Shown here piece after piece: positions 3,455 to 11,709 of a DNA stretch of 11,762 nucleotides. The stretch is from an uncultured archaeon (GTDB lineage: Archaea; Altiarchaeota; Altiarchaeia; JAFGQM01): positions 1-11,762 of the forward strand of contig CAZUDQ010000014.1 of the NCBI GenBank assembly GCA_964619365.1. The letters run 5' to 3'. The translations under genes were made by a program, and so were the position numbers. How positions within the stretch are numbered: position 1 is the first letter of the stretch; every line of letters starts with the position of its first letter. Below the pieces are notes generated by a model. That model had not been told where the DNA came from. It ran no database searches and was given only the letters and a program-made list of their open reading frames with translations.

Positions 3455-4453
3455 TTATGCCCCTTGCTGTGAGGCTGTTGAAATGTGGTCTATTGAATAT
3501 GAGGTCTTGGCCTGTGGAGGTCTGATTGAAGTCCTGAGTGCAATGGCTCTTTTCTTTGGACCGGGAATTGAACCTTTTACCATAAGATAGTTTCCGGAGA
3601 CTATGCCGTAACCGACAAAACCGCCGTTGGGGTTTATCTCTTCGCCCTTCTCACCAATTTTTAGTATGAGCTTGTTGAATTCTGTTCTGTTGTGATATCC
3701 CATTTGACCTGCCATAGGGGCGAGCCATGAGACGTTTGCCGGTTTCCAACCACCAATTGAACCTATATGCCTCATGTGCCCTGCACGCTTGGCTTTTCTT
3801 TTTTGTATCTTGATTCCCCAACGCTTAACGGGTCCTTGGAATCCTTTTCCTTTAGTGACTGCTATTGCATCAATGAAATCTGATTCAGAGAAAATATCTG
3901 CGATTGGAACTTCTTTTCCAAGAATGCTTTTAGCGTACTCCCACTGTGCAGAAACATCACCACCGATTCCAAGCTCCATTACAGCAGGCGCCTTTTTCCC
4001 GATGCCTGACTGCTTTGGTTGAGTTGCGATAATAAGAACGAATTTTGTGATTTTATCCATGTAGTCTGCGACCTTCTTTTCCTTTTCGGCGTTTTTGACT
4101 TCCTTTGGGATTTGTATGGAACGCGCGAGGTCGGAGTCTAGTTTTTCTGCAAATATCTCAGTGAGGGATTCAGTTCCTTCATATCCATCAACGTATGCTC
4201 TTATGCCAATGACTTTCATCGGCGGGCAGTCAAGGACTGTTACTGGAATCTGAACATCCATGTTGTAAGTCGGGTTGCCTTTGTTTAGGTCTTTTGCAAT
4301 AATGTGTGTCATTCCTGCTTTGTAACAGAGGAAGCCTAAAGCTCCTACTTCTGTTTCAGGACGAAACACACTTATTGAGGGCGTCTCCTTCTTTGCCCTG
4401 ACCCTTGGGGAATACCCTGTAGATCCACAACGTGGCTTGTGATGTTTTGCCAT
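3455..4453 (-). CDS. rplC: 50S ribosomal protein uL3 (rpl3p); start reassigned to ATG 4453
   Basis: MAKHHKPRCGS.GYSPR.RA, YKAGMTH, TKGKGFQGPVKRWG, AGQMGYHNRTEFNK, KGSIPGPKKR. ATG 4453 matches the usual archaeal N-terminus, whereas the track's GTG at 4480 lies inside the structured leader. Confidence 0.98.
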   Translation of the reverse strand: MAKHHKPRCGSTGYSPRVRAKKETPSISVFRPETEVGALGFLCYKAGMTHIIAKDLNKGNPTYNMDVQIPVTVLDCPPMKVIGIRAYVDGYEGTESLTEIFAEKLDSDLARSIQIPKEVKNAEKEKKVADYMDKITKFVLIIATQPKQSGIGKKAPAVMELGIGGDVSAQWEYAKSILGKEVPIADIFSESDFIDAIAVTKGKGFQGPVKRWGIKIQKRKAKRAGHMRHIGSIGGWKPANVSWLAPMAGQMGYHNRTEFNKLILKIGEKGEEINPNGGFVGYGIVSGNYLMVKGSIPGPKKRAIALRTSIRPPQAKTSYSIDHISTASQQGA

Positions 4454-4471
4454 TATATATTTATTGACTAT

Positions 4472-4572
4472 GGCAACCACCTAGTTAACTAGAGGGCTAA
4501 TGCAAAAAATTATCGCATAGCCGCCTAAACAGAGAAGGCGGGTGCCTGTTATTTCCTCCAATGTGGAAGAAA
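4472..4572 (-). ncRNA. Structured 5' leader of the uL3 operon (candidate ribosomal-protein leader, cis-regulatory RNA)
   Basis: Minus strand: hairpin TTTCTTCCA-CAT-TGGAGGAAA (4572-4552). It is followed by a closing stem GGCACC/GG(T)TGCC (4546-4541 with 4478-4472) enclosing three hairpins: CGCCT/AGGCG, GCTA-TGCG/TGCA-(T)-TAGC and CTAG-TTAA-CTAG. Lies between the TATA box and the uL3 start. Folded by eye only. Confidence 0.55.
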
Positions 4573-4594: not shown

Positions 4595-4608
4595 TATAAA
4601 AAGGTTTG
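4595..4608 (-). promoter_or_regulatory. Archaeal BRE/TATA promoter of the ribosomal protein operon
   Basis: Minus strand CAAACC-TTTTTATA; the usual spacing predicts a transcription start near 4570-4577. Confidence 0.7.
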
Positions 4609-4610
4609 TG

Positions 4611-4628
4611 AGAAAAACGAAGAAAAAG
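4611..4628 (-). terminator. Oligo-T terminator candidate for the Cys-rich protein gene
   Basis: Minus strand CTTTTTCTTCGTTTTTCT just after the TAA at 4635; archaeal intrinsic terminators are U-tracts. Confidence 0.5.
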
Positions 4629-4634
4629 CAGGAT

Positions 4635-7600
4635 TTAACACCTGCCAAAGTTCATATCCTCTTCTGCGCGCTGTGAGTAGTACTGCGCAAGGCGACATGA
4701 AAGGTCTGCGTTTGCCCCACCTTCATTACACGACCTGAGGAACGCTGCTGCGCCCGTAAGGGAATCCTCAGCTCCCGGACAATTATCTACTGCGATAAAT
4801 GCTTTGGTGTATGCTTCTGCGGCGTCTGCCGGACTTGTCGAGTACATTCCAAGCGGATGAGTTATCGCCGGAAGTTCAGGCACGCTCTCACTGGGGAGAA
4901 GCAATGACTCTGGACTAAAGACATAACATTTCTGTGTTTTTGAAGCACCAGAAGGCGCAGTCATTAGAACGTTATACTCGCACACATATCCTTTTGGTAC
5001 CTCAACTGTTACCGTACCGACTTCTTCTGTTGAGCCGTGTTCTATTGAACTTACTCCAAGAGTGTCAGAATATACCGTGCATCCTTGTCCGAACTGAACA
5101 TCAAAGTCCCAGGGTATGTTTATACCTGCCTTGTTGGAGGTAAGCGTTGATTTCTCTTTAAAGACTACGGGCTCAGCTGAAATGGATTCTGTCAGGAAGT
5201 CGCAAGTCACTTCGCCGGTATAATCTTCATTGCAGGCGCCCGGGTCAAGAGTCTTGGCACATGAAGCATAGCCATCTGGGAAACAGTAGCCTCTGAAGTT
5301 CTGACCATTTATTTCTGAATTGGCGTTGTCGTGCGGCTGGCAGTAATATCCGTTTCCTTGAGCAACGGGGCTATCACAAGCCGACCCTGAAAGCGCGGTT
5401 CCGTCTGTAGAACATATACCGCCCTCACAACTGCCGCTGGAACAATCAGCATCACTATTGCAGTCTTCAAAAGAGATTTGAGTACAGGAACTGCAATAAC
5501 AATCAGCCCCTTCAGGAACGCATGCCTCGCCTGAAGCGCATAAACTCGCATCGCATGCACCCGCATTAGAGCACTCGACTCTGCATTCACATGAACTTGT
5601 ACAGGATTCGCCTAAAGGACATCCTGTTGGGTCTGCCATCGGATCACATACTTCATCAGCATCTTTGGAGCCATCGCCACAAGAGCTTTCTATTGTCGTC
5701 TTAACACAATCACAGGTTGTAACCCCACCGTCAATTACTTCAGAGCATTTCCACCCAGAGCCAAACGCGCTCTCACAATCATCATATATAGAGCAGCTTG
5801 AACTTGCCGCCTGGCACTCAGTCGGTGATTCACAAACGCACTGACAAGTTTCCGGACTGCAGAAACCTCCATCTGGACAGTCATCATCCGAGTCACAGCT
5901 TTCACCATTTAGCAGTATGCCGTCTTCAATATTACAAGAGGGGAGAATCTGTTTGCACGCGCAGTTTTCACAATCATCAGGATTAATGCTTCCACTTGAT
6001 GCACTTATGTCTTCCTGACACTTCCATTGGGTATTTAGAGTTCCAAGTTTAGTCTGACAATCATCTTTTGTGTCACACGCACCCGGAGCACTTGTGTTCT
6101 CGCACTCTGTGAATTCATAACAACAACCGTCATCTCTGCAGTCTGGCGTTCCTGCCGGGCAGTCAGCATCACTTGAACATGCCTGGTGTCCTGCTGGACA
6201 GGCCTTTTGGGCACTGCAGCCACAATAACTGCCTAAATCGTTGCAGTAAGGTAATATGCTATTACAAAGTGAGGGATCACATGCACCCGATTCTTCATCA
6301 GTACAATTTATCCTAGAATAACAGTAACAGCTGCCAGATGTCGCGCCAACGCATTCATAATAACCTTCAGGACAAAGACTTGGGTCGCATGCTCCTGCGT
6401 CTGTTGTACAATCAATACATTCATCGACATCAGAATCCGCACTTGCAACAGGATAGCTTGACTGTGGCGGACATGCGTCTTCCACGCACCACCCTTGAGC
6501 CGCGGCAGTCTCCCAGTCGTCAAGTGGCGTCACCTGACAAGCCCATTCTCCATTTTGTCCATAAGCCGGGATTATAACCGCAGTTGTAGACGAGCTTTGC
6601 GAGGTCTTTGAATCGTCCTTTGTACCACCATAATACCACTCATACTGGTACTCTATCTCATCAGCTGAATCAAAATCAATACTTGTTCCTGTCACCCTGC
6701 ACTCAAGGTCTGCGTTTATGCAAGAATCCTCAGGAATTGTTAGCGCCGCAGGCATTGAAGGAACATTATTGCATGTACGTTCAAGAGGAACTGCATGTCC
6801 GCACGTTTCTGATTCTACCGTTGCCCAGCTTACAGTTGATGCATACTGGGTATGATCCTGACAAGACGTCCAGCTTGTTACTGCATCTATATAATTACAG
6901 AGTTGGTAGCTTTCGGTAACAGTCATTGTTGTCGAATAAGAACCGCCATATGTGTTACTGCAATAATATGTGCCCGTGCAGGTATTGCGAACCGCATAAG
7001 AATCGTGACGGCAATTGACTCCTCTTTTACATGTCCCCACCATTTGGCCTGTGGGTGTATATGCCGCTGAACAGCGGCTCCAGGAACCTCCATTAGAACT
7101 CGCGTAAGAGCTAGTATAATAGGTGAGGTCATCATCGTAAATCAAGATACAGTTCGGTCCATGGTAAAAGATTCCAATACGTTCCCAATAACAAGAAACG
7201 CTCCTTTGAACTTGCCTTGTGTGGGATGTAAGGTATGTATCAGCTATAAATGACTCAGGAACTTCCCTGATTTCCACAGCAGTCGATGTCGCCCAGGGTG
7301 AGAAGTCCATCCCGTCAAATGCCCTTACTTTAAGTTTCCAGATATCGCCCTCGACTAGTGCTGAGTCTGGGACACTTGCTGTTGTGTAAGCTGTTTTAAC
7401 ATCATTTTTGTACCACTCATAATCAAATGATACTATGTCCCCGTCAGAATCAATGAGTATACTGGGATTTGGGCAATCTGGCCCACATAGATCATATCCA
7501 GATATGACGGCTGATAAAGGACTTGTTGTAAATCCACCCTCTACTGAAATCAGAGGTGTTGCCGGCGGATTATTTATAATTAGTGTGTTTATTGTTGTAT

Positions 7601-8120
7601 GAAGACTTATCGTTCCACCTTCTCCATCAGAAACCGTCGCGTCGCAAGCAACAGTCTCACCTTCAACATAAGAATCAAAAGAAGAGCTCTCAGATACGTC
7701 TTTTGGGCCGTCTGTTGTAACATGAATCCCAGAGGGTGACCAGATATATGTGACAGACAAATCGTCCCCTTCTGAATCTGCGTAGTTTAGTACTCTACAT
7801 ATTAACTCATCCGCCGTATTTTTTATAAGGCTTATCCTTGCAGAAGGTCTTGAATTACAATATTTTTCTAAACTGACTACGTGTTCGCAATCAGAAGCAG
7901 GTGAAGCAACGCGCACGGAATTCCAGTTTACATCTGTTGCTTCCTGGACGTGGTGTATACAATTTCCCCAAGTGTTGACTCTAGTTATATAATTACAGGA
8001 ATAGTTGCCATCATCTTCAAGAACTACATGAGCTGGCCCCGGTGCTGCCGCAAGTGCTGTTGCCGGAATAAGCAAAAGTACTAGTCCTATTAAGATTCCC
8101 AGTTGTGTTTTAGAGTCCAT
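4635..8120 (-). CDS. Large secreted cysteine-rich multidomain protein (signal peptide, three Ig-like repeats, tandem 6-Cys modules); putative adhesin or surface protein
   Basis: 1161-aa ORF with a Sec-type signal (K..LGILIGLVLLLIPATALA). Three repeats follow N.xP...D.(D/E).(G/A)D....Y.W...G...(W/V).(C/L).(V/A)...D. About 93 Cys by hand count, including GACD(P/A)SLC x3, CxxDxDC-type motifs and CGDG......EVCD. No C-terminal TM segment. Confidence 0.85.
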   Translation of the reverse strand: MDSKTQLGILIGLVLLLIPATALAAAPGPAHVVLEDDGNYSCNYITRVNTWGNCIHHVQEATDVNWNSVRVASPASDCEHVVSLEKYCNSRPSARISLIKNTADELICRVLNYADSEGDDLSVTYIWSPSGIHVTTDGPKDVSESSSFDSYVEGETVACDATVSDGEGGTISLHTTINTLIINNPPATPLISVEGGFTTSPLSAVISGYDLCGPDCPNPSILIDSDGDIVSFDYEWYKNDVKTAYTTASVPDSALVEGDIWKLKVRAFDGMDFSPWATSTAVEIREVPESFIADTYLTSHTRQVQRSVSCYWERIGIFYHGPNCILIYDDDLTYYTSSYASSNGGSWSRCSAAYTPTGQMVGTCKRGVNCRHDSYAVRNTCTGTYYCSNTYGGSYSTTMTVTESYQLCNYIDAVTSWTSCQDHTQYASTVSWATVESETCGHAVPLERTCNNVPSMPAALTIPEDSCINADLECRVTGTSIDFDSADEIEYQYEWYYGGTKDDSKTSQSSSTTAVIIPAYGQNGEWACQVTPLDDWETAAAQGWCVEDACPPQSSYPVASADSDVDECIDCTTDAGACDPSLCPEGYYECVGATSGSCYCYSRINCTDEESGACDPSLCNSILPYCNDLGSYCGCSAQKACPAGHQACSSDADCPAGTPDCRDDGCCYEFTECENTSAPGACDTKDDCQTKLGTLNTQWKCQEDISASSGSINPDDCENCACKQILPSCNIEDGILLNGESCDSDDDCPDGGFCSPETCQCVCESPTECQAASSSCSIYDDCESAFGSGWKCSEVIDGGVTTCDCVKTTIESSCGDGSKDADEVCDPMADPTGCPLGESCTSSCECRVECSNAGACDASLCASGEACVPEGADCYCSSCTQISFEDCNSDADCSSGSCEGGICSTDGTALSGSACDSPVAQGNGYYCQPHDNANSEINGQNFRGYCFPDGYASCAKTLDPGACNEDYTGEVTCDFLTESISAEPVVFKEKSTLTSNKAGINIPWDFDVQFGQGCTVYSDTLGVSSIEHGSTEEVGTVTVEVPKGYVCEYNVLMTAPSGASKTQKCYVFSPESLLLPSESVPELPAITHPLGMYSTSPADAAEAYTKAFIAVDNCPGAEDSLTGAAAFLRSCNEGGANADLSCRLAQYYSQRAEEDMNFGRC
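5493..6410 (-). repeat. Eight tandem degenerate ~6-Cys protein modules ending in CxC or CC
   Basis: Examples: CTTDAGACDPSLCPEGYYECVGATSGSCYC; CTDEESGACDPSLCNSILPYCNDLGSYCGC; CSNAGACDASLCASGEACVPEGADCYC. The repeat is visible in protein; the DNA is diverged. Confidence 0.75.
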
Positions 8121-8122
8121 TT

Positions 8123-9610
8123 TTATTCTGATATCTTTGCCGCATACTCGGCTTCTTTGTCTCCCTCACCCATTGCTGAATATATGTTTGCAAGATTTGC
8201 ATAGATGTCTGTTTCAAGTGATAATGCAGTTGACGCAATTAGTGTCTCATCGCTTGGCAAAAGTTCTGCTGCCTTAAGGCCAGCCGTTTCTGCCTGGTCA
8301 AGCATACCCTGCTTGTATAATGCATAGGAAAGCTCATAGTATGCTGCTGAACTGCCTGCATCTATTGCAATTGCTTTTTGCGCGCTGTCCTGGGCTTTCT
8401 TATAATCGCCTTCAATGCTACACGTGTGTGCCATACTTGAGTAAAGCGGGGCGTATTCCGGCAAGAACGAAATACCCATCTCGTATGCGCCTATTGCAGC
8501 ATCGTATTCTCCAGCCCTTGTCTGCAGATATCCAATTGAGATGTATGCATCTGCTTTTTCTGTTGCCAGGAGGCTTGAATCTGAGTTTACAACTATCTCA
8601 CAATCTTCTATTGCCTCAGTTAAGTAATTATCATTAGTGCTAAGAATACTGCAAAGCTGGCGGTATATTTCAGTGTACTTATGATCTGGGTCTAATTCCT
8701 TTGCTTCAAGGAAATCCTGAGTCGCATTCTCAAGGATGCCTGCATATGCATAAACGTGTCCACGCCCAACAAGCGCTGGAATATTTTTAGCATCCATTTC
8801 AAGAGCTTTTGAATACTGATCTGAAGCGTTAAACGGCATTAAGACCGCCTCGTAAGCATGACCTAGAGATACAAACGAGTTTGAATCAAGAGGTTTTAGT
8901 GTAACGAGTTTTTTGCCCAGTTCTATCGCCTTTGTTGCATTTCCACTTTCTGGGCCACTTTCCCAGGCAAGATTTGAATAAGCATCGACTGCAACAGATA
9001 AGAGCCATGCGTCGTCAGGATGCTCAATTAATAGTGGTTCAAGAAGGGGCATAAGTTCAGCATAATTTTGGTTTGACAAGTATGATAAGACAAGTGTCTG
9101 GTACTCACCGGTAGCTTCCACATACGCCTTGCCGGAACCTGATACTGATGTGCACGCATCCCTTGTTTCCTTAGAGACAATGTACTGGCAAAGGCTTGGG
9201 TCAAAAGTGTCTATTGCGTTTGTGTAATAAAGGTTATCAAGAAGGGCAATTCTGCAGGCGTCTCTTTTTTCAGTTATGTTGATACACGAACAGTAGTCTT
9301 GTTTCTCTGTTAATGAAAGGTAATTTGCATCGGCAACTGAAAGGCCTTCGCATTTTTTGGTGTCAAGGGCTCCTATGACTTTTTCTATCTCGCTTTTTTG
9401 TGCACGGCAGTCGGCAGGGCATGATTCACCTGTTTCGCCGGGAGAACAAACCCCATCGCCGCAAACATCTTTTGTAATAGGTGTTGTGACATTCTTTTCT
9501 ACAACGGGCGCGGAGCCTGTCAAGAAGACTGCAATGGCGATTACTAAAATTATACCTGCGATAATTGCAATAAGGATCTGTGGATCTTTTAGTTCCATTT
9601 TTAAGTTCAT
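8123..9610 (-). CDS. Membrane-anchored tetratricopeptide-repeat protein with N-terminal Cys-rich motifs
   Basis: N-terminal TM helix (ILIAIIAGIILVIAIAVFL), CGDGVCSPGETGESCPADC, C..I.....RDAC x2. Multiple TPRs follow (SFVSLGHAYEA...YSKALEMDAK; ALVGRGHVY...AKELDP; AYISIGY...GEYDAAIGAYE; AYYELSYALYKQG). Several N-x-S/T sequons. Confidence 0.9.
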   Translation of the reverse strand: MNLKMELKDPQILIAIIAGIILVIAIAVFLTGSAPVVEKNVTTPITKDVCGDGVCSPGETGESCPADCRAQKSEIEKVIGALDTKKCEGLSVADANYLSLTEKQDYCSCINITEKRDACRIALLDNLYYTNAIDTFDPSLCQYIVSKETRDACTSVSGSGKAYVEATGEYQTLVLSYLSNQNYAELMPLLEPLLIEHPDDAWLLSVAVDAYSNLAWESGPESGNATKAIELGKKLVTLKPLDSNSFVSLGHAYEAVLMPFNASDQYSKALEMDAKNIPALVGRGHVYAYAGILENATQDFLEAKELDPDHKYTEIYRQLCSILSTNDNYLTEAIEDCEIVVNSDSSLLATEKADAYISIGYLQTRAGEYDAAIGAYEMGISFLPEYAPLYSSMAHTCSIEGDYKKAQDSAQKAIAIDAGSSAAYYELSYALYKQGMLDQAETAGLKAAELLPSDETLIASTALSLETDIYANLANIYSAMGEGDKEAEYAAKISE

Positions 9611-9680
9611 TATTCTTATCAGGAATAGTATAAAAGTAAGTATATTTTTATATAATTAGATTTAATCTAATGGACTTGAA
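9611..9680. promoter_or_regulatory. Divergent AT-rich promoter region with a perfect 17-bp operator-like inverted repeat
   Basis: TATA-like TTTTATA on the minus strand (9635-9629) about 25 nt before the TPR ATG. TTTTTATATA on the plus strand (9645-9654) before the phasin-like ATG. ATTAGATT-T-AATCTAAT at 9655-9671. Confidence 0.6.
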
Positions 9681-10010
9681 ATGACAAAAAGCATAATTGA
9701 GGAGGTAATTCTCCTTGCGGCAGGCTTTGGCGTTATTGCCGAAGAGAAGCTAAACGAATATCTGACCCAGGCTGAAAAGATGGGGATAATTGACAAGAAA
9801 GAAGCAAAGGCGCTGGCTGAAAAGGTCATGGAAAGGCAGAAAAAAGACCACAATGCCCTTGCAAAAGATATTGACAAGAGCATCTCTGAAAGCTTAAAGT
9901 CGCTTGGCCTTGTCCAGAAAAAAGACTATGACAAACTTGTTGAAAAGTTAGAAAAGATCAAGGAAGGGAAGAAATCTGCTCCCAAGAAAAAGCCTAAGAA
10001 GAAAGCTTAG
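9681..10010 (+). CDS. Phasin-family (COG3937 / PhaF-like) coiled-coil protein with Lys-rich tail
   Basis: Matches the recalled family pattern: LL.A.G.G.I.EEK......L....K.G.I.KKEAK.L.E, then SLKSLGLVQKKDYDKL.EKLE.I (cf. LGLATKEDxxxLxxRI). Ends KKSAPKKKPKKKA. Confidence 0.7.
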   Translation: MTKSIIEEVILLAAGFGVIAEEKLNEYLTQAEKMGIIDKKEAKALAEKVMERQKKDHNALAKDIDKSISESLKSLGLVQKKDYDKLVEKLEKIKEGKKSAPKKKPKKKA

Positions 10011-10756
10011 AAAAAGATAAGCTTAATGCTTGCGGCAATTGCCACGACAAAAAATATCCTCCTAATCCATTTGTTGCCAAGGCGTTCGGCGTATTTTAAC
10101 GAAAGAATAGTGCCAAGTGTCATCCCAAGAAGTACGGCAAGAGTTACCTCCCAGTTCACTTGCCCTGCCCAGATAAATATGGTGCCCGATATTATCGCGC
10201 AGAATAAAACCGCAATCTTTCTGGTACCTGCTGTCTCAAGAAAAGTGAGACCAAAAAAGAATATCATCATATAGGCTAGAAAAGTCCCAAATGAGGCTCC
10301 GTAAAAGCCCGCATAGATTCCAAGGAAAAATGCGATTGTGGCTCCTAGTAGATACCTCTTAGTTGAGGGGCTCATATCTATCTTTTTCATACCAGCTTGC
10401 GGATTAAGCGCCATTAGCGCCAGGACAAAAAGCGTGACTCCTGCAATTATATAATTAATGAGAAACGGTTCTATTGCCAGAAGTACATACGCTCCGATTA
10501 TTGCACCAAAGGCGGCGGGTATTGCAATTATAAATCCTAATTTTTTATCAACATACCCCTTCTTTGCAAAGCCTGCCCAGCCGACAACACCTAAGCCTAT
10601 GACGCCGACCCTGTTTGATGCTATTGCGATCTGCGGCGGGATACCTAATGCGAGAATTACAGGGATTGTAACAAGACTTCCACCCCCGCTAAGGCTGCCA
10701 TAAAACCCACCAAGAAGAGCTGCGGCAAATATTAAAATAAATGATAGGAGTTCCAT
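10007..10756 (-). CDS. TSUP family (TauE/SafE, DUF81) transporter, putative sulfite or anion exporter
   Basis: About 8 hydrophobic segments; GFYGSLSGGGSLVTIP...LGIPPQIAIASN and the internal repeat GIYAGFYGASFGTF. An alternative GTG start lies at 10759. The stop overlaps the convergent phasin stop (10007-10010). Confidence 0.92.
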   Translation of the reverse strand: MELLSFILIFAAALLGGFYGSLSGGGSLVTIPVILALGIPPQIAIASNRVGVIGLGVVGWAGFAKKGYVDKKLGFIIAIPAAFGAIIGAYVLLAIEPFLINYIIAGVTLFVLALMALNPQAGMKKIDMSPSTKRYLLGATIAFFLGIYAGFYGASFGTFLAYMMIFFFGLTFLETAGTRKIAVLFCAIISGTIFIWAGQVNWEVTLAVLLGMTLGTILSLKYAERLGNKWIRRIFFVVAIAASIKLIFF

Positions 10757-10799
10757 CACGCCTTAGTTTGAAGGCTAAGTGTAAGAAAAGAAATGGGTG

Positions 10800-10849: not shown

Positions 10850-11674
10850 TCACAATTTGACGGCAGTCGACTTCTTTTTGAAATAATCAAACAGCCTCAA
10901 CTGGAACTGGACACACTTTGGATCCCAGCTCTCTATACACATGTCCATGTAAGTTGAAGGTCCTTTTTTGGATTTGAAGCCTATCGTGCAGAAATCGTCG
11001 CCTATTGTGAATGCTATGGAAAGGTCCTCAATTAAGAAAAACTGCAGATTTTTCATAGAACGCAGTTTTGATATCTGGTCTTTTGGTATCTTACTAAGCA
11101 TACTATCGAGTATCTCTTTAGTAAATATCAATTGGACCTTTGCATTATTGTTGATTGCCTGCATGATTGCTTCCATATAATCGTCGCGGAAGACGGGAGT
11201 AACACCCCACAATCTTTTTTTAGCTCCTTTGTACAGTTCAATCCATCGCCTATCTGGATAATCAATTACGTCCGCCTTGGGTTTTAAGAGGACTGCAGTA
11301 GCATAGAGGCCTATTTCTTGCCTGAACTCTTCAGGCAAACCGGAGAGAATATGACTGTCCCAGTATTCTCTAAATTTATTTAAGCTTGAGTAAAACTGCA
11401 ATTCTTCCTTAATTCTCTCTAGTACCAGTTCTCCCCACTCAGTTAATGTGTAATCTCCGTCAGGTTTTTCCACTAGCCCAAGGTCCATAAGACCCTTGCA
11501 ATTAGCAGAAGTGTTTGGCGCGTTTAAGTTTAATTTGTACCTCAAATCAGAGAGTCTATGAGGCTTATTTTCGTATAGTGCATCAAGTATTGCTAACTTG
11601 GTACTTGAGCCATACAGACTTTTGATGGTTCCTTCATTATCTTTGTAAAGTTGGAGAAAGGGGGAAACTTTCAT
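10850..11674 (-). CDS. Winged-HTH transcriptional regulator with DUF1724 / FilR1-type middle domain (COG4742-like)
   Basis: N-terminal ArsR-like wHTH (SSTKLAILDAL...LSDLR..L......S.....L.DLGLVEK....YTLTEWG). It is followed by YW.SH.LSGLPEEF...IG and GVTPVF...Y....V.LI.T, typical of this archaeal family. ATG 11674 is preferred over TTG 11689 because CCAACC-TTTTAT lies about 28 nt upstream (leaderless spacing). Confidence 0.85.
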   Translation of the reverse strand: MKVSPFLQLYKDNEGTIKSLYGSSTKLAILDALYENKPHRLSDLRYKLNLNAPNTSANCKGLMDLGLVEKPDGDYTLTEWGELVLERIKEELQFYSSLNKFREYWDSHILSGLPEEFRQEIGLYATAVLLKPKADVIDYPDRRWIELYKGAKKRLWGVTPVFRDDYMEAIMQAINNNAKVQLIFTKEILDSMLSKIPKDQISKLRSMKNLQFFLIEDLSIAFTIGDDFCTIGFKSKKGPSTYMDMCIESWDPKCVQFQLRLFDYFKKKSTAVKL

Positions 11675-11709
11675 ATTAGCTTTAGGCAATTATCCAATAA
11701 AAGGTTGGA

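What the first reader, a model, noticed from the sequence alone, without database searches (positions are those of the whole stretch)
4635..9610. Two-gene extracellular module: membrane-tethered TPR scaffold plus unanchored giant disulfide-rich protein
Seen: the genes are co-oriented, 2 nt apart, and lie between one promoter region and one U-tract. Gene 1 has a single N-terminal TM, Cys motifs, sequons and a long TPR array predicted to face outward. Gene 2 has a signal peptide, Ig-like repeats and Cys-rich modules, but no TM or recognisable archaeosortase signal. Both contain DPSLC and CGDG motifs. Inference: the TPR protein anchors, chaperones or displays the large protein, giving a two-partner adhesion or host-recognition apparatus of the kind expected in a symbiotic DPANN cell. 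This is the best candidate for an undescribed system in the window.
Basis: partly seen in the sequence, partly recalled or inferred. Interest (0 to 1): 0.78.

Follow-up and report, generated by a model that had tools for sequence, protein, structure and literature searches.

The report
Membrane TPR gene plus secreted cysteine-rich protein
An uncultured archaeon carries a two-gene unit for a membrane-anchored repeat protein and a large, secreted, cysteine-rich protein that looks like a surface adhesin, but nothing yet shows that the two work as partners.

Summary
The two genes are real. They lie on the minus strand: gene 1 at 8123-9610 (495 aa) and gene 2 at 4635-8120 (1161 aa), 2 nt apart. An AT-rich promoter-like region lies upstream and a T-tract downstream.

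Gene 1 has one N-terminal membrane helix, a stretch with 10 Cys, and a confidently modelled TPR superhelix. Gene 2 has a signal peptide with an AxA-type site and Ig-like repeats. It has 93 Cys, no Pfam or NCBIfam match, and no second hydrophobic segment.

The shared DPSLC and CGDG motifs are at chance level. Sequons are not enriched in gene 1 and are depleted in gene 2.

Gene 2 belongs to a very small family: P0004, P0046 and the partial P0042. The family has exchangeable N-terminal heads and a conserved C-terminal domain. The last 84 aa are identical in the paralogue P0004.

Gene 1 has no relative beyond generic TPR proteins. In a related genome the orthologous neighbours abut with no module between them, and none of the four related genomes with visible upstream sequence has it there.

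So an extracellular two-gene operon is supported. A TPR-anchors-adhesin apparatus and a DPANN host remain untested inferences. Moderate interest.

The parts
9611..9680 (-). Intergenic region shared with the divergent phasin-like gene. AT-rich TATA-like boxes on the minus strand at about 9656-9641 and 9636-9628. Presumed promoter of the two-gene unit.
   Evidence: Sequence read. TTTWTAWA matches at 9645-9654 on the plus strand. This is a consensus match only; no transcript data.
8123..9610 (-). Gene 1: 495-aa signal-anchored TPR protein (P0001). An alternative start at M5 (9598) gives 491 aa.
   Evidence: ORF, translation, the 491-aa form, Pfam TPR families, AF2 mean pLDDT 79.3.
9521..9583 (-). 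Gene 1 residues 10-30: the only hydrophobic helix. It is followed by TGSA-P; the Pro at +1 argues against signal-peptidase cleavage.
   Evidence: Hydropathy; helix 10-30 in the AF2 model. The Pro+1 rule is established knowledge and was not computed here.
9152..9463 (-). Gene 1 residues 50-153: stretch with 10 Cys (C-x4-C-x8-C-x3-C, then helical Cys pairs). No known family; poorly modelled.
   Evidence: Cys positions. pLDDT below 50 for 32-61, 84-90 and 95-134. No Pfam hit at a meaningful E-value. No Atlas lead.
8126..9133 (-). Gene 1 residues 160-495: TPR superhelix of about 8-9 repeats.
   Evidence: Pfam TPR_1 2.4e-17 and TPR_2 1.8e-16. pLDDT mostly above 90. Foldseek best matches are consensus TPR and the OGT TPR domain, E 1.9e-12. 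PDB sequence hits.
4635..8120 (-). Gene 2: 1161-aa secreted, acidic, cysteine-rich multidomain protein (P0002).
   Evidence: ORF, translation, 93 Cys and D+E/K+R of 171/51, pI 4.05, no Pfam or NCBIfam family.
8046..8120 (-). Gene 2 residues 1-25: signal peptide with an ALA-A site.
   Evidence: Hydropathy. Relatives P0004, P0046 and P0042 also have small-x-small sites after their hydrophobic N-termini (VSA-L, ASA-A, AMA-I; sequences). SignalP was not available.
6486..8045 (-). Gene 2 residues 26-545: N-terminal 'head'. A duplicated 4-Cys module (42-98 and 408-460) is combined with three Ig-like beta-sandwich repeats and a conserved middle segment.
   Evidence: Internal duplication at 40% identity, E 1.2e-12. 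534 HMMER hits, nearly all to residues ~100-290 and 450-535. Segment scan. Beta strands in the low-confidence model.
5196..6485 (-). Gene 2 residues 546-975: cysteine-rich 'stalk' with 64 Cys. Found only in the paralogue P0004, apart from one CGDG-type module (813-847) that recurs in P0112.
   Evidence: 95% identity to P0004 in residues 641-680 and 761-800. No Pfam hit.
4638..5195 (-). Gene 2 residues 976-1161: conserved C-terminal domain. A beta domain is followed by an ELPAI-x-HPL motif and three helices (1097-1157) containing CRLAQYY. The last 84 residues are identical in P0004.
   Evidence: identical run of 84; P0046 aligns at 34% identity, E 7e-16; helical part found in 7 of 189 session proteins, all from the P0002, P0004 or P0046 groups; secondary structure.
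4611..4646 (-). Short hairpin overlapping the stop codon, followed by T-tracts. Presumed transcript end of the unit.
   Evidence: Terminator-like site at 4646-4627 (4 found against 5.1 expected, so not significant by count). T runs read.
4595..4602 (-). TTTTTATA box between the module and the L3 gene. This is the boundary: the ribosomal-protein operon probably has its own promoter.
   Evidence: It is the only minus-strand TTTWTAWA match in the window. L3 and the downstream ribosomal genes were identified.

Best explanation
This is a lineage-specific two-gene operon for envelope proteins of an uncultured archaeon.

Gene 1 encodes a type-II (signal-anchored) membrane protein. Its Cys-containing juxtamembrane region and its 8-9-repeat TPR superhelix face outward.

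Gene 2 encodes a Sec-secreted, disulfide-rich, very acidic modular protein built like an adhesin. It has three parts:
- an exchangeable N-terminal head of Ig-like and small 4-Cys modules;
- a cysteine-rich stalk;
- a strictly conserved C-terminal domain, which is the most likely attachment or oligomerisation module, because the protein has no membrane anchor, lipobox or sortase-type signal.

What is shown: the gene structures, the domain layout, the family relations and the operon-like arrangement.

What is inferred: the outward topology, cleavage of the gene 2 signal peptide, co-transcription and the adhesin role.

Weakest step, my odds about 0.3: the TPR ectodomain holds or helps assemble the large protein through that conserved C-terminal domain.
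For: - Arrangement: a 2-nt gap, one AT-rich upstream region and a T-tract downstream, and no minus-strand TATA consensus inside the unit.
- Compartment: both products have pI 4.05 and 4.36, against 8.65-9.83 for the non-ribosomal neighbours FilR1-like, phasin-like and TauE. Ten Cys follow the single TM of gene 1 directly. Gene 2 has 93 Cys and a signal peptide.
- No own anchor: there is no second hydrophobic segment, and no Pfam or NCBIfam hit of any kind.
- Adhesin-like build: the N-terminal repeats match multi-repeat proteins of up to 5694 aa. Those proteins also carry Big_5, PKD, FG-GAP and beta-helix domains.
- Modular family: the N-terminal half scores 206 and 175 bits to P0042 and P0046 but only 63.5 to the paralogue P0004. 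The C-terminal half scores 733 bits to P0004. The last 84 aa are identical in P0004. The C-terminal domain is also kept in P0046.
- Inserted as a unit: in L002 the phasin-like orthologue (38% identity) lies directly upstream of L3 with nothing between.
- Native codon usage: GC3 is 0.365-0.367 for the two genes against 0.355-0.50 for the neighbours.
Against: - The TPR protein has no detectable orthologue or paralogue, although gene 2 has relatives. The pair is therefore not seen to be conserved.
- The paralogue P0004 appears to lie on the same 133,581-nt contig. This rests on equal longest-contig lengths and is an inference. No second TPR of this type exists in the database.
- The charge distribution around the gene 1 TM is neutral on both sides (sequence), so topology is not settled.
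- Sequons do not support exposure of gene 1: 5 against 2.5 expected, not significant.
- The gene 2 model is unusable (mean pLDDT 31.3), so its domain folds are inferred from sequence only.
- Promoter and terminator calls are consensus matches at background frequency.
Confidence: 0.45

Rival explanations
1. The two genes are co-transcribed or merely adjacent but functionally independent. The TPR protein is a general envelope scaffold or has unrelated clients. The large protein attaches to the S-layer or another envelope component, or self-assembles, through its conserved C-terminal domain.
For: No TPR orthologue or paralogue accompanies the gene 2 family. The shared motifs are at chance level. 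The TPR fold is generic; the best matches are consensus TPR and OGT. In a tool benchmark quoted in its description, only 7 of 44 blind neighbour pairs passed a binding test.
Against: The 2-nt spacing, the absence of an internal TATA consensus and the joint absence of both genes from the L002 locus suggest they came and stay together.
Confidence: 0.3
2. The TPR domain faces the cytoplasm (N-out, C-in). The Cys cluster after the helix binds metal, and the protein acts as a membrane-bound cytoplasmic adaptor that never meets the secreted protein.
For: Flanking charges are balanced on both sides of the helix (sequence). The C-x4-C-x8-C-x3-C spacing could bind zinc. Most characterised TPR proteins are cytoplasmic; the PDB hits are of that kind. 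Sequons are not enriched.
Against: The protein has pI 4.36 like the secreted partner, unlike the basic neighbours. The N-tail is only 9 residues. Ten Cys are spread over 104 residues, with helical Cys pairs rather than a compact knuckle. Extracytoplasmic TPR proteins are well known in bacteria; NCBIfam gives sub-threshold similarity to PrsT, PilW, Tgl and GltE.
Confidence: 0.12
3. The large protein needs no partner. Either its N-terminal hydrophobic segment is not cleaved and anchors it, or it is released as a soluble exoprotein.
For: The hydrophobic stretch is long; 19-residue windows starting at residues 4-12 exceed 1.6 on the Kyte-Doolittle scale. No anchor signal of any kind was found.
Against: Four of four family members have a small-x-small site right after the hydrophobic core (sequences). 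The 84-residue identical C-terminus between paralogues points to a conserved interaction at that end.
Confidence: 0.13

Closest known systems
Large multi-repeat surface (adhesin-like) proteins of bacteria and archaea that carry the same unnamed Ig-like repeat (for example P0043-P0045; one cluster member is named 'MopE-related protein [Myxococcota bacterium]')
   Same: Residues ~100-290 and 450-545 of gene 2 match their repeats at 28-44% identity, with E-values down to 7.6e-52. Both have a signal peptide and an acidic, beta-rich build. Accompanying domains such as Big_5, PKD and FG-GAP are typical of surface proteins.
   Different: Gene 2 has only three such repeats. They are combined with a duplicated 4-Cys module, a 430-residue cysteine-rich stalk and a C-terminal domain, and these are seen only in P0004, with the C-terminal domain also in P0046. 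The repeat has no Pfam or NCBIfam model.
Extracytoplasmic, membrane-tethered TPR accessory proteins of bacteria (PrsT of the PEP-CTERM system, PilW/PilF, Tgl, GltE, BcsC N-terminal region)
   Same: A TPR array is held at the membrane and thought to face outward, encoded beside genes for a surface structure. NCBIfam gives weak similarity: PrsT 3.1e-12, PilW 2.3e-08, GltE 3.3e-06, Tgl 5.7e-04.
   Different: All scores are far below the family cut-offs (45.2 against 312.2, and 33.9 against 154). The anchor is a transmembrane helix, not a lipobox. The host is an archaeon with no outer membrane to pilot to. The client is unknown. How those bacterial proteins function is recalled knowledge and was not tested here.
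TPR receptors that capture a C-terminal tail (PEX5-PTS1, Tom71/Hop-EEVD)
   Same: These are structural neighbours of the TPR model: 1fch and 2c0m (PEX5), 3lca (Tom71 with an Hsp70 tail). Gene 2 ends in an invariant acidic tail...AEEDMNFGRC, that is identical in the paralogue.
   Different: This is a resemblance of fold class only. No carboxylate-clamp residues were examined. P0046 ends differently, in ...ASARSLI. The one complex prediction gave no verdict (see Tried and rejected).
Cysteine-rich variant surface proteins with a variable N-terminus and an invariant C-terminus (Giardia VSPs). Recalled; only a search listing of a Giardia review, PMC13671459, was seen.
   Same: High Cys content (8%). 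There are paralogues whose N-terminal parts differ strongly while the C-terminal end is identical.
   Different: No sequence relation. Gene 2 has no C-terminal transmembrane anchor. Only two paralogues are known. The host is an archaeon.

Membership tests
TPR repeat proteins (Pfam clan: TPR_1, TPR_2, TPR_17, TPR_14, TPR_8) | Repeated 34-residue helix-turn-helix units scoring above the Pfam gathering thresholds | tested here: met
   TPR_1 62.4 bits (cut-off 27.8), TPR_2 59.3 (27), TPR_17 51.9 (24.4), TPR_14 37.8 (23.5), TPR_8 33.8 (25.7).
TPR repeat proteins | Right-handed superhelix of paired antiparallel helices | tested here: met
   The AF2 model has 18 helices between residues 160 and 494, with pLDDT mostly above 90. 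Foldseek to an 8-repeat consensus TPR gives E 1.9e-12 and TM (target) 0.69.
XrtA/PEP-CTERM system TPR lipoprotein PrsT (TIGR02917) and type IV pilus PilW (TIGR02521) | Whole-protein score above the NCBIfam equivalog cut-off | tested here: not met
   PrsT 45.2 bits against cut-off 312.2. PilW 33.9 against 154.
Archaeosortase/exosortase substrates (PGF-CTERM, PEF-CTERM, PIP-CTERM, PEP-CTERM) | C-terminal tripartite signal: short motif, hydrophobic helix, basic tail | tested here: not met
   Gene 2 has no 19-residue window above 1.6 (Kyte-Doolittle) beyond windows starting at residues 4-12. The C-terminus is ...AEEDMNFGRC. No NCBIfam hit at E <= 0.1. That NCBIfam holds these signal models is recalled.
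Lipoproteins (lipobox-anchored) | Cys at the +1 position of a lipobox at the end of the signal peptide | tested here: not met
   The first Cys of gene 2 is residue 42 and the first Cys of gene 1 is residue 50.
Two-partner secretion (TpsA/TpsB) | TPS secretion domain in the exoprotein and an Omp85-type POTRA transporter as partner | tested here: not met
   No Pfam domain of either kind is present in P0001 or P0002. The partner is a TPR protein, not a beta-barrel.
Unnamed family of gene 2 (P0002, P0004, P0046, partial P0042) | Signal peptide, 4-Cys module plus Ig-like repeats, and a C-terminal beta domain with ELPAI-x-HPL and a CRLAQYY three-helix end | tested here: met
   Pairwise alignments. 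Segment scan: the C-terminal helical part is found only in these groups, 7 of 189 proteins. P0042 lacks the C-terminal part and may be cut by its 4001-nt contig.
DPANN archaea (as host of the module) | Phylogenetic placement within a DPANN lineage | tested here: inconclusive
   In an L3+L4+L2 tree of 74 rows, the window groups with 4 unnamed MAGs (SH-aLRT 100) on a 0.45 stem. Micrarchaeota are the nearest named rows (path 1.61). The sampling was the best 80 L3 matches only, with midpoint rooting.

The most novel reading that the evidence does not exclude
The invariant C-terminal domain of the large protein (84 residues identical between paralogues, also kept in a distant relative) is a docking module. 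It is captured by the outward-facing TPR superhelix of the neighbouring signal-anchored protein. This would be a sortase-independent way for an uncultured archaeal lineage to display surface proteins, in which one membrane receptor holds interchangeable cysteine-rich adhesins with different heads.
Probability: 0.15. Interest if true: 0.7.

Novelty: new variant of a known kind. Interest (0 to 1): 0.4.

Why it matters
How archaea without a recognised sorting signal keep large adhesin-like proteins on their surface is poorly understood. This is especially true for uncultured lineages that may live attached to other cells.

The locus offers a small test case with three features:
- a secreted, disulfide-rich protein whose only conserved end is a new C-terminal domain;
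- a membrane TPR protein encoded 2 nt upstream;
- a paralogue with a different head but an identical tail.

If the TPR protein proved to be the holdfast, this would be a new display principle. If not, the locus is still a useful example of head-swapping in a tiny orphan surface-protein family. As it stands, it is an uncharacterised but not extraordinary envelope operon.

Tried and rejected
- Complex prediction of TPR ectodomain (36-495) with gene 2 residues 975-1161, using alignments A2 and A3: no verdict, score 0.00 in two runs, controls not run. This is neither for nor against binding.
- Structure of gene 2: mean pLDDT 31.3 with a 4-row alignment. It is unusable for fold search, so no fold search was run on it.
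- Genome-collection scan with the gene 2 alignment A1: 88 pattern matches, none a relative. The patterns the tool chose (AEEDMNF and one other) were narrow.
As a result the C-terminal domain could not be searched in genomes.
- Word-index searches for gene 2, whole length and residues 960-1161: only the self entry and P0004.
- Pfam on five sub-segments at E <= 10: only noise, namely zf-RAG1 0.016, PTN_MK_C 0.15, CDGP 0.38 and COX17 0.016.
- No hits from PDB sequence search of gene 2 (0 hits), ESM Atlas, PHROGs for gene 2, plasmid tblastn or Rfam.
- Intermolecular-disulfide idea from odd Cys counts (13 in gene 1 and 93 in gene 2): dropped, because the paralogue has 88, an even number.
- Flanking direct repeats as an insertion scar: none of note.
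- Foreign origin judged from codon usage: not supported.
- tblastn of both proteins against the 80 fetched loci: no hit at 1e-5.
- Literature: three full-text searches returned nothing on such a pair. Only listings were seen and no paper was read.


Full report
**What is in the window**

All long genes but one lie on the minus strand. Reading along that strand, the order is:
- a FilR1-like regulator (10850-11689);
- a TauE/SafE membrane protein (10007-10759);
- a small phasin-like gene on the plus strand (9681-10010), divergent from the next gene;
- the two genes of the finding (8123-9610 and 4635-8120);
- the archaeal ribosomal-protein genes L3, L4, L23, L2, S19, L22 and S3.

The finding's coordinates are exact, but both genes are on the minus strand. 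The stop codon of gene 1 and the start codon of gene 2 are separated by two bases.

**Transcription signals**

The 70-nt space between gene 1 and the divergent phasin-like gene is AT-rich and has TATA-like boxes. On the minus strand, no match to TTTWTAWA lies inside the two genes. The only minus-strand match in the window is at 4595-4602, between gene 2 and L3.

Directly after the gene 2 stop codon come a short hairpin and two T5 runs. A separate bicistronic unit is therefore the simplest reading. These are consensus matches at background frequency, and there are no transcript data.

**Gene 1 (P0001, 495 aa)**

- It has one hydrophobic segment at residues 10-30 and 13 Cys, ten of them between residues 50 and 153.
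- Five Pfam TPR families score above threshold across residues 169-455.
- The AF2 model, built on a 21-row alignment, has mean pLDDT 79.3. It shows the membrane helix, a poorly modelled region at 32-134 and a confident TPR superhelix at 160-495.
- The nearest solved folds are consensus TPR proteins and the OGT TPR domain.
- The charges flanking the helix are balanced, so the positive-inside rule does not decide topology.
- I favour an outward-facing C-terminal part, at about 0.7. The reasons are the Cys-dense stretch right after the helix, the very short N-tail, and a pI of 4.36. That pI matches the secreted neighbour and contrasts with 8.65-9.83 for the non-ribosomal neighbours FilR1-like, phasin-like and TauE.
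- The residues after the helix read TGSA-P. A proline at +1 is known to block signal-peptidase cleavage (established knowledge), so a signal anchor is more likely than a cleaved signal.
- A database entry starts the protein at M5.

**Gene 2 (P0002, 1161 aa)**

- Its only hydrophobic segment is N-terminal and ends in ALA-A. It has 93 Cys (8.0%), 171 acidic against 51 basic residues, and no Cys before residue 42.
- Neither Pfam nor NCBIfam recognises any part of it, whether searched whole or in five pieces. The PDB sequence search also finds nothing.
- The AF2 model is unusable (mean pLDDT 31.3). The domain map below therefore comes from sequence comparisons.
- Residues 42-98 and 408-460 are a duplicated 4-Cys module (40% identity, E 1.2e-12).
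- Residues ~100-290 and 450-545 are beta-rich repeats. They account for nearly all of the 534 HMMER hits among 1.84 billion representatives.
- The carriers of these repeats are proteins of up to 5694 aa with up to 32 matched stretches. They give weak Ig_2 hits and also carry Big_5, PKD, FG-GAP and beta-helix domains. One cluster member is labelled as a Myxococcota protein. 'Ig-like repeats' is therefore a fair description.
- Residues 546-975 hold 64 Cys and have relatives only in P0004, apart from one CGDG-type module that recurs in P0112.
- Residues 976-1161 form a beta domain, then an ELPAI-x-HPL motif and three helices.

**The family of gene 2**

The family is tiny and mosaic.
- P0004 (1228 aa) is the only full-length relative in the word-index searches.
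- P0004 is identical to gene 2 over the last 84 residues and 95% identical in residues 641-680 and 761-800. It is only 10-30% identical over most of the first 400 residues.
- The N-terminal half of gene 2 is closer to P0042 (206 bits) and P0046 (175 bits) than to P0004 (63.5 bits). The C-terminal half scores 733 bits to P0004.
- P0046 (1299 aa) also keeps the C-terminal domain, at 34% identity and E 7e-16.
- A member of the P0004 cluster, gene 1, gene 2 and the window's L2 all report the same longest contig length, 133,581 nt. P0004 is therefore probably a paralogue on the same contig; this is an inference.
- The pattern of exchangeable heads on a conserved stalk and an invariant tail points to the C-terminal end as the place of a conserved interaction.

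**Is the TPR protein that interaction partner?**

In favour, there is only the tight operon-like arrangement and the likely shared compartment.

Against a conserved partnership:
- Gene 1 has no relative beyond generic TPR proteins. The best of 32 non-self hits has 27-30% identity, covers only the TPR part, and none of the 32 has the CG[DN]G motif.
Shared 4-mers number 10 against 8.28 +/- 2.88, and shared 5-mers number 2 against 0.52, reached in 10.9% of shuffles.
- Sequons do not help either. Gene 1 has 5 against 2.5 expected. Gene 2 and its relatives are depleted: 3 against 9.1, 5 against 13.0, and 5 against 10.4.

The genomic context of P0004, P0046 and P0042 could not be read.

**Synteny and host**

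- The L3 scan returned 80 loci.
- The closest are five unnamed 'uncultured archaeon' MAGs at 62-70% L3 identity. Named taxa start at about 50%, and these are mostly Methanobacteriales.
- An L3+L4+L2 tree of 74 rows was built; 7 of the 80 loci were dropped for incomplete genes, L004 among them. It groups the window with four of the unnamed MAGs (SH-aLRT 100) on a long stem. Micrarchaeota are the nearest named rows by path.
- This neither shows nor excludes a DPANN host.
- In L002 the orthologue of the phasin-like gene (38% identity) lies directly upstream of L3, with nothing between them.
- In L003, L004 and L005 other small genes precede L3.
- None of the 80 loci encodes a relative of either module protein.
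- The module is therefore a lineage-specific insertion into a variable spot, present or absent as a pair. It has native codon usage and no flanking repeats.

**Verdict**

I read the locus as an envelope operon. It encodes a signal-anchored TPR protein and a secreted, disulfide-rich, adhesin-like protein of a new small family. The conserved C-terminal domain of the large protein is its likely attachment module.

- My odds that the TPR protein is the holdfast or an assembly helper are about 0.3.
- My odds that the two act independently are about the same.

No disulfide-forming machinery is encoded in the window. The rest of the genome was not available.

Noticed in passing
P0002 against P0004, P0042 and P0046 (gene 2 = window 4635-8120, minus strand): Mosaic kinship. 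The N-terminal half of gene 2 is closer to proteins from other contigs (206 and 175 bits) than to its probable paralogue (63.5 bits). The C-terminal half is near-identical to the paralogue (733 bits, last 84 aa identical). This suggests head swapping or gene conversion of the tail.
   Followed up: partly
window 4635-8120 (minus strand) and relatives P0004, P0046: N-X-S/T sequons are depleted in the whole family: 3 against 9.1 +/- 2.6, 5 against 13.0 +/- 3.1, and 5 against 10.4 +/- 2.9 in shuffles. This may be avoidance of N-glycosylation in a densely disulfide-bonded protein. It is unexplained.
   Followed up: no
window 7827-7994 and 6741-6896 (gene 2 residues 42-98 and 408-460): A duplicated 4-Cys module with a W-x-x-C core (for example SWTSC) is also present in P0004, P0042 and P0046. 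It shows a weak, non-significant resemblance to the PTN/MK C-terminal (thrombospondin-repeat-like) domain, E 0.15. This is a lead only.
   Followed up: partly
window 9681-10010 (+); L002 8282-8620 (-): A small basic coiled-coil-like protein scores just below the Pfam Phasin threshold (26.1 against 28.8 bits). It is conserved next to the L3 operon in a related MAG (38% identity). Its function is unknown.
   Followed up: partly
window 3455-4480 (minus strand): The longest L3 ORF starts at GTG 4480. However, the ATG at 4450 (MAKH...) matches the N-termini of L3 in relatives and follows the TTTTTATA box at 4595-4602, so 4450 is the likely start.
   Followed up: partly
window 10850-11689 (-) and 10007-10759 (-): A FilR1-like winged-helix regulator (FilR1_middle 1e-18, HVO_A0261_N 5.5e-09) and a TauE/SafE-family membrane protein (1.2e-41) lie upstream. 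No link to the module is evident.
   Followed up: no
L002 3503-6058 (+): The related MAG encodes an 851-aa protein with bacterial TSP3 repeats about 2.7 kb upstream of its L3 operon. This is another probable calcium-binding surface protein, unrelated in sequence to gene 2.
   Followed up: no
whole window; L001-L005: The organism belongs to a clade known here only from unnamed 'uncultured archaeon' MAGs, at 55-70% identity in L3, L4 and L2. Named archaea reach only about 50% in L3.
   Followed up: partly
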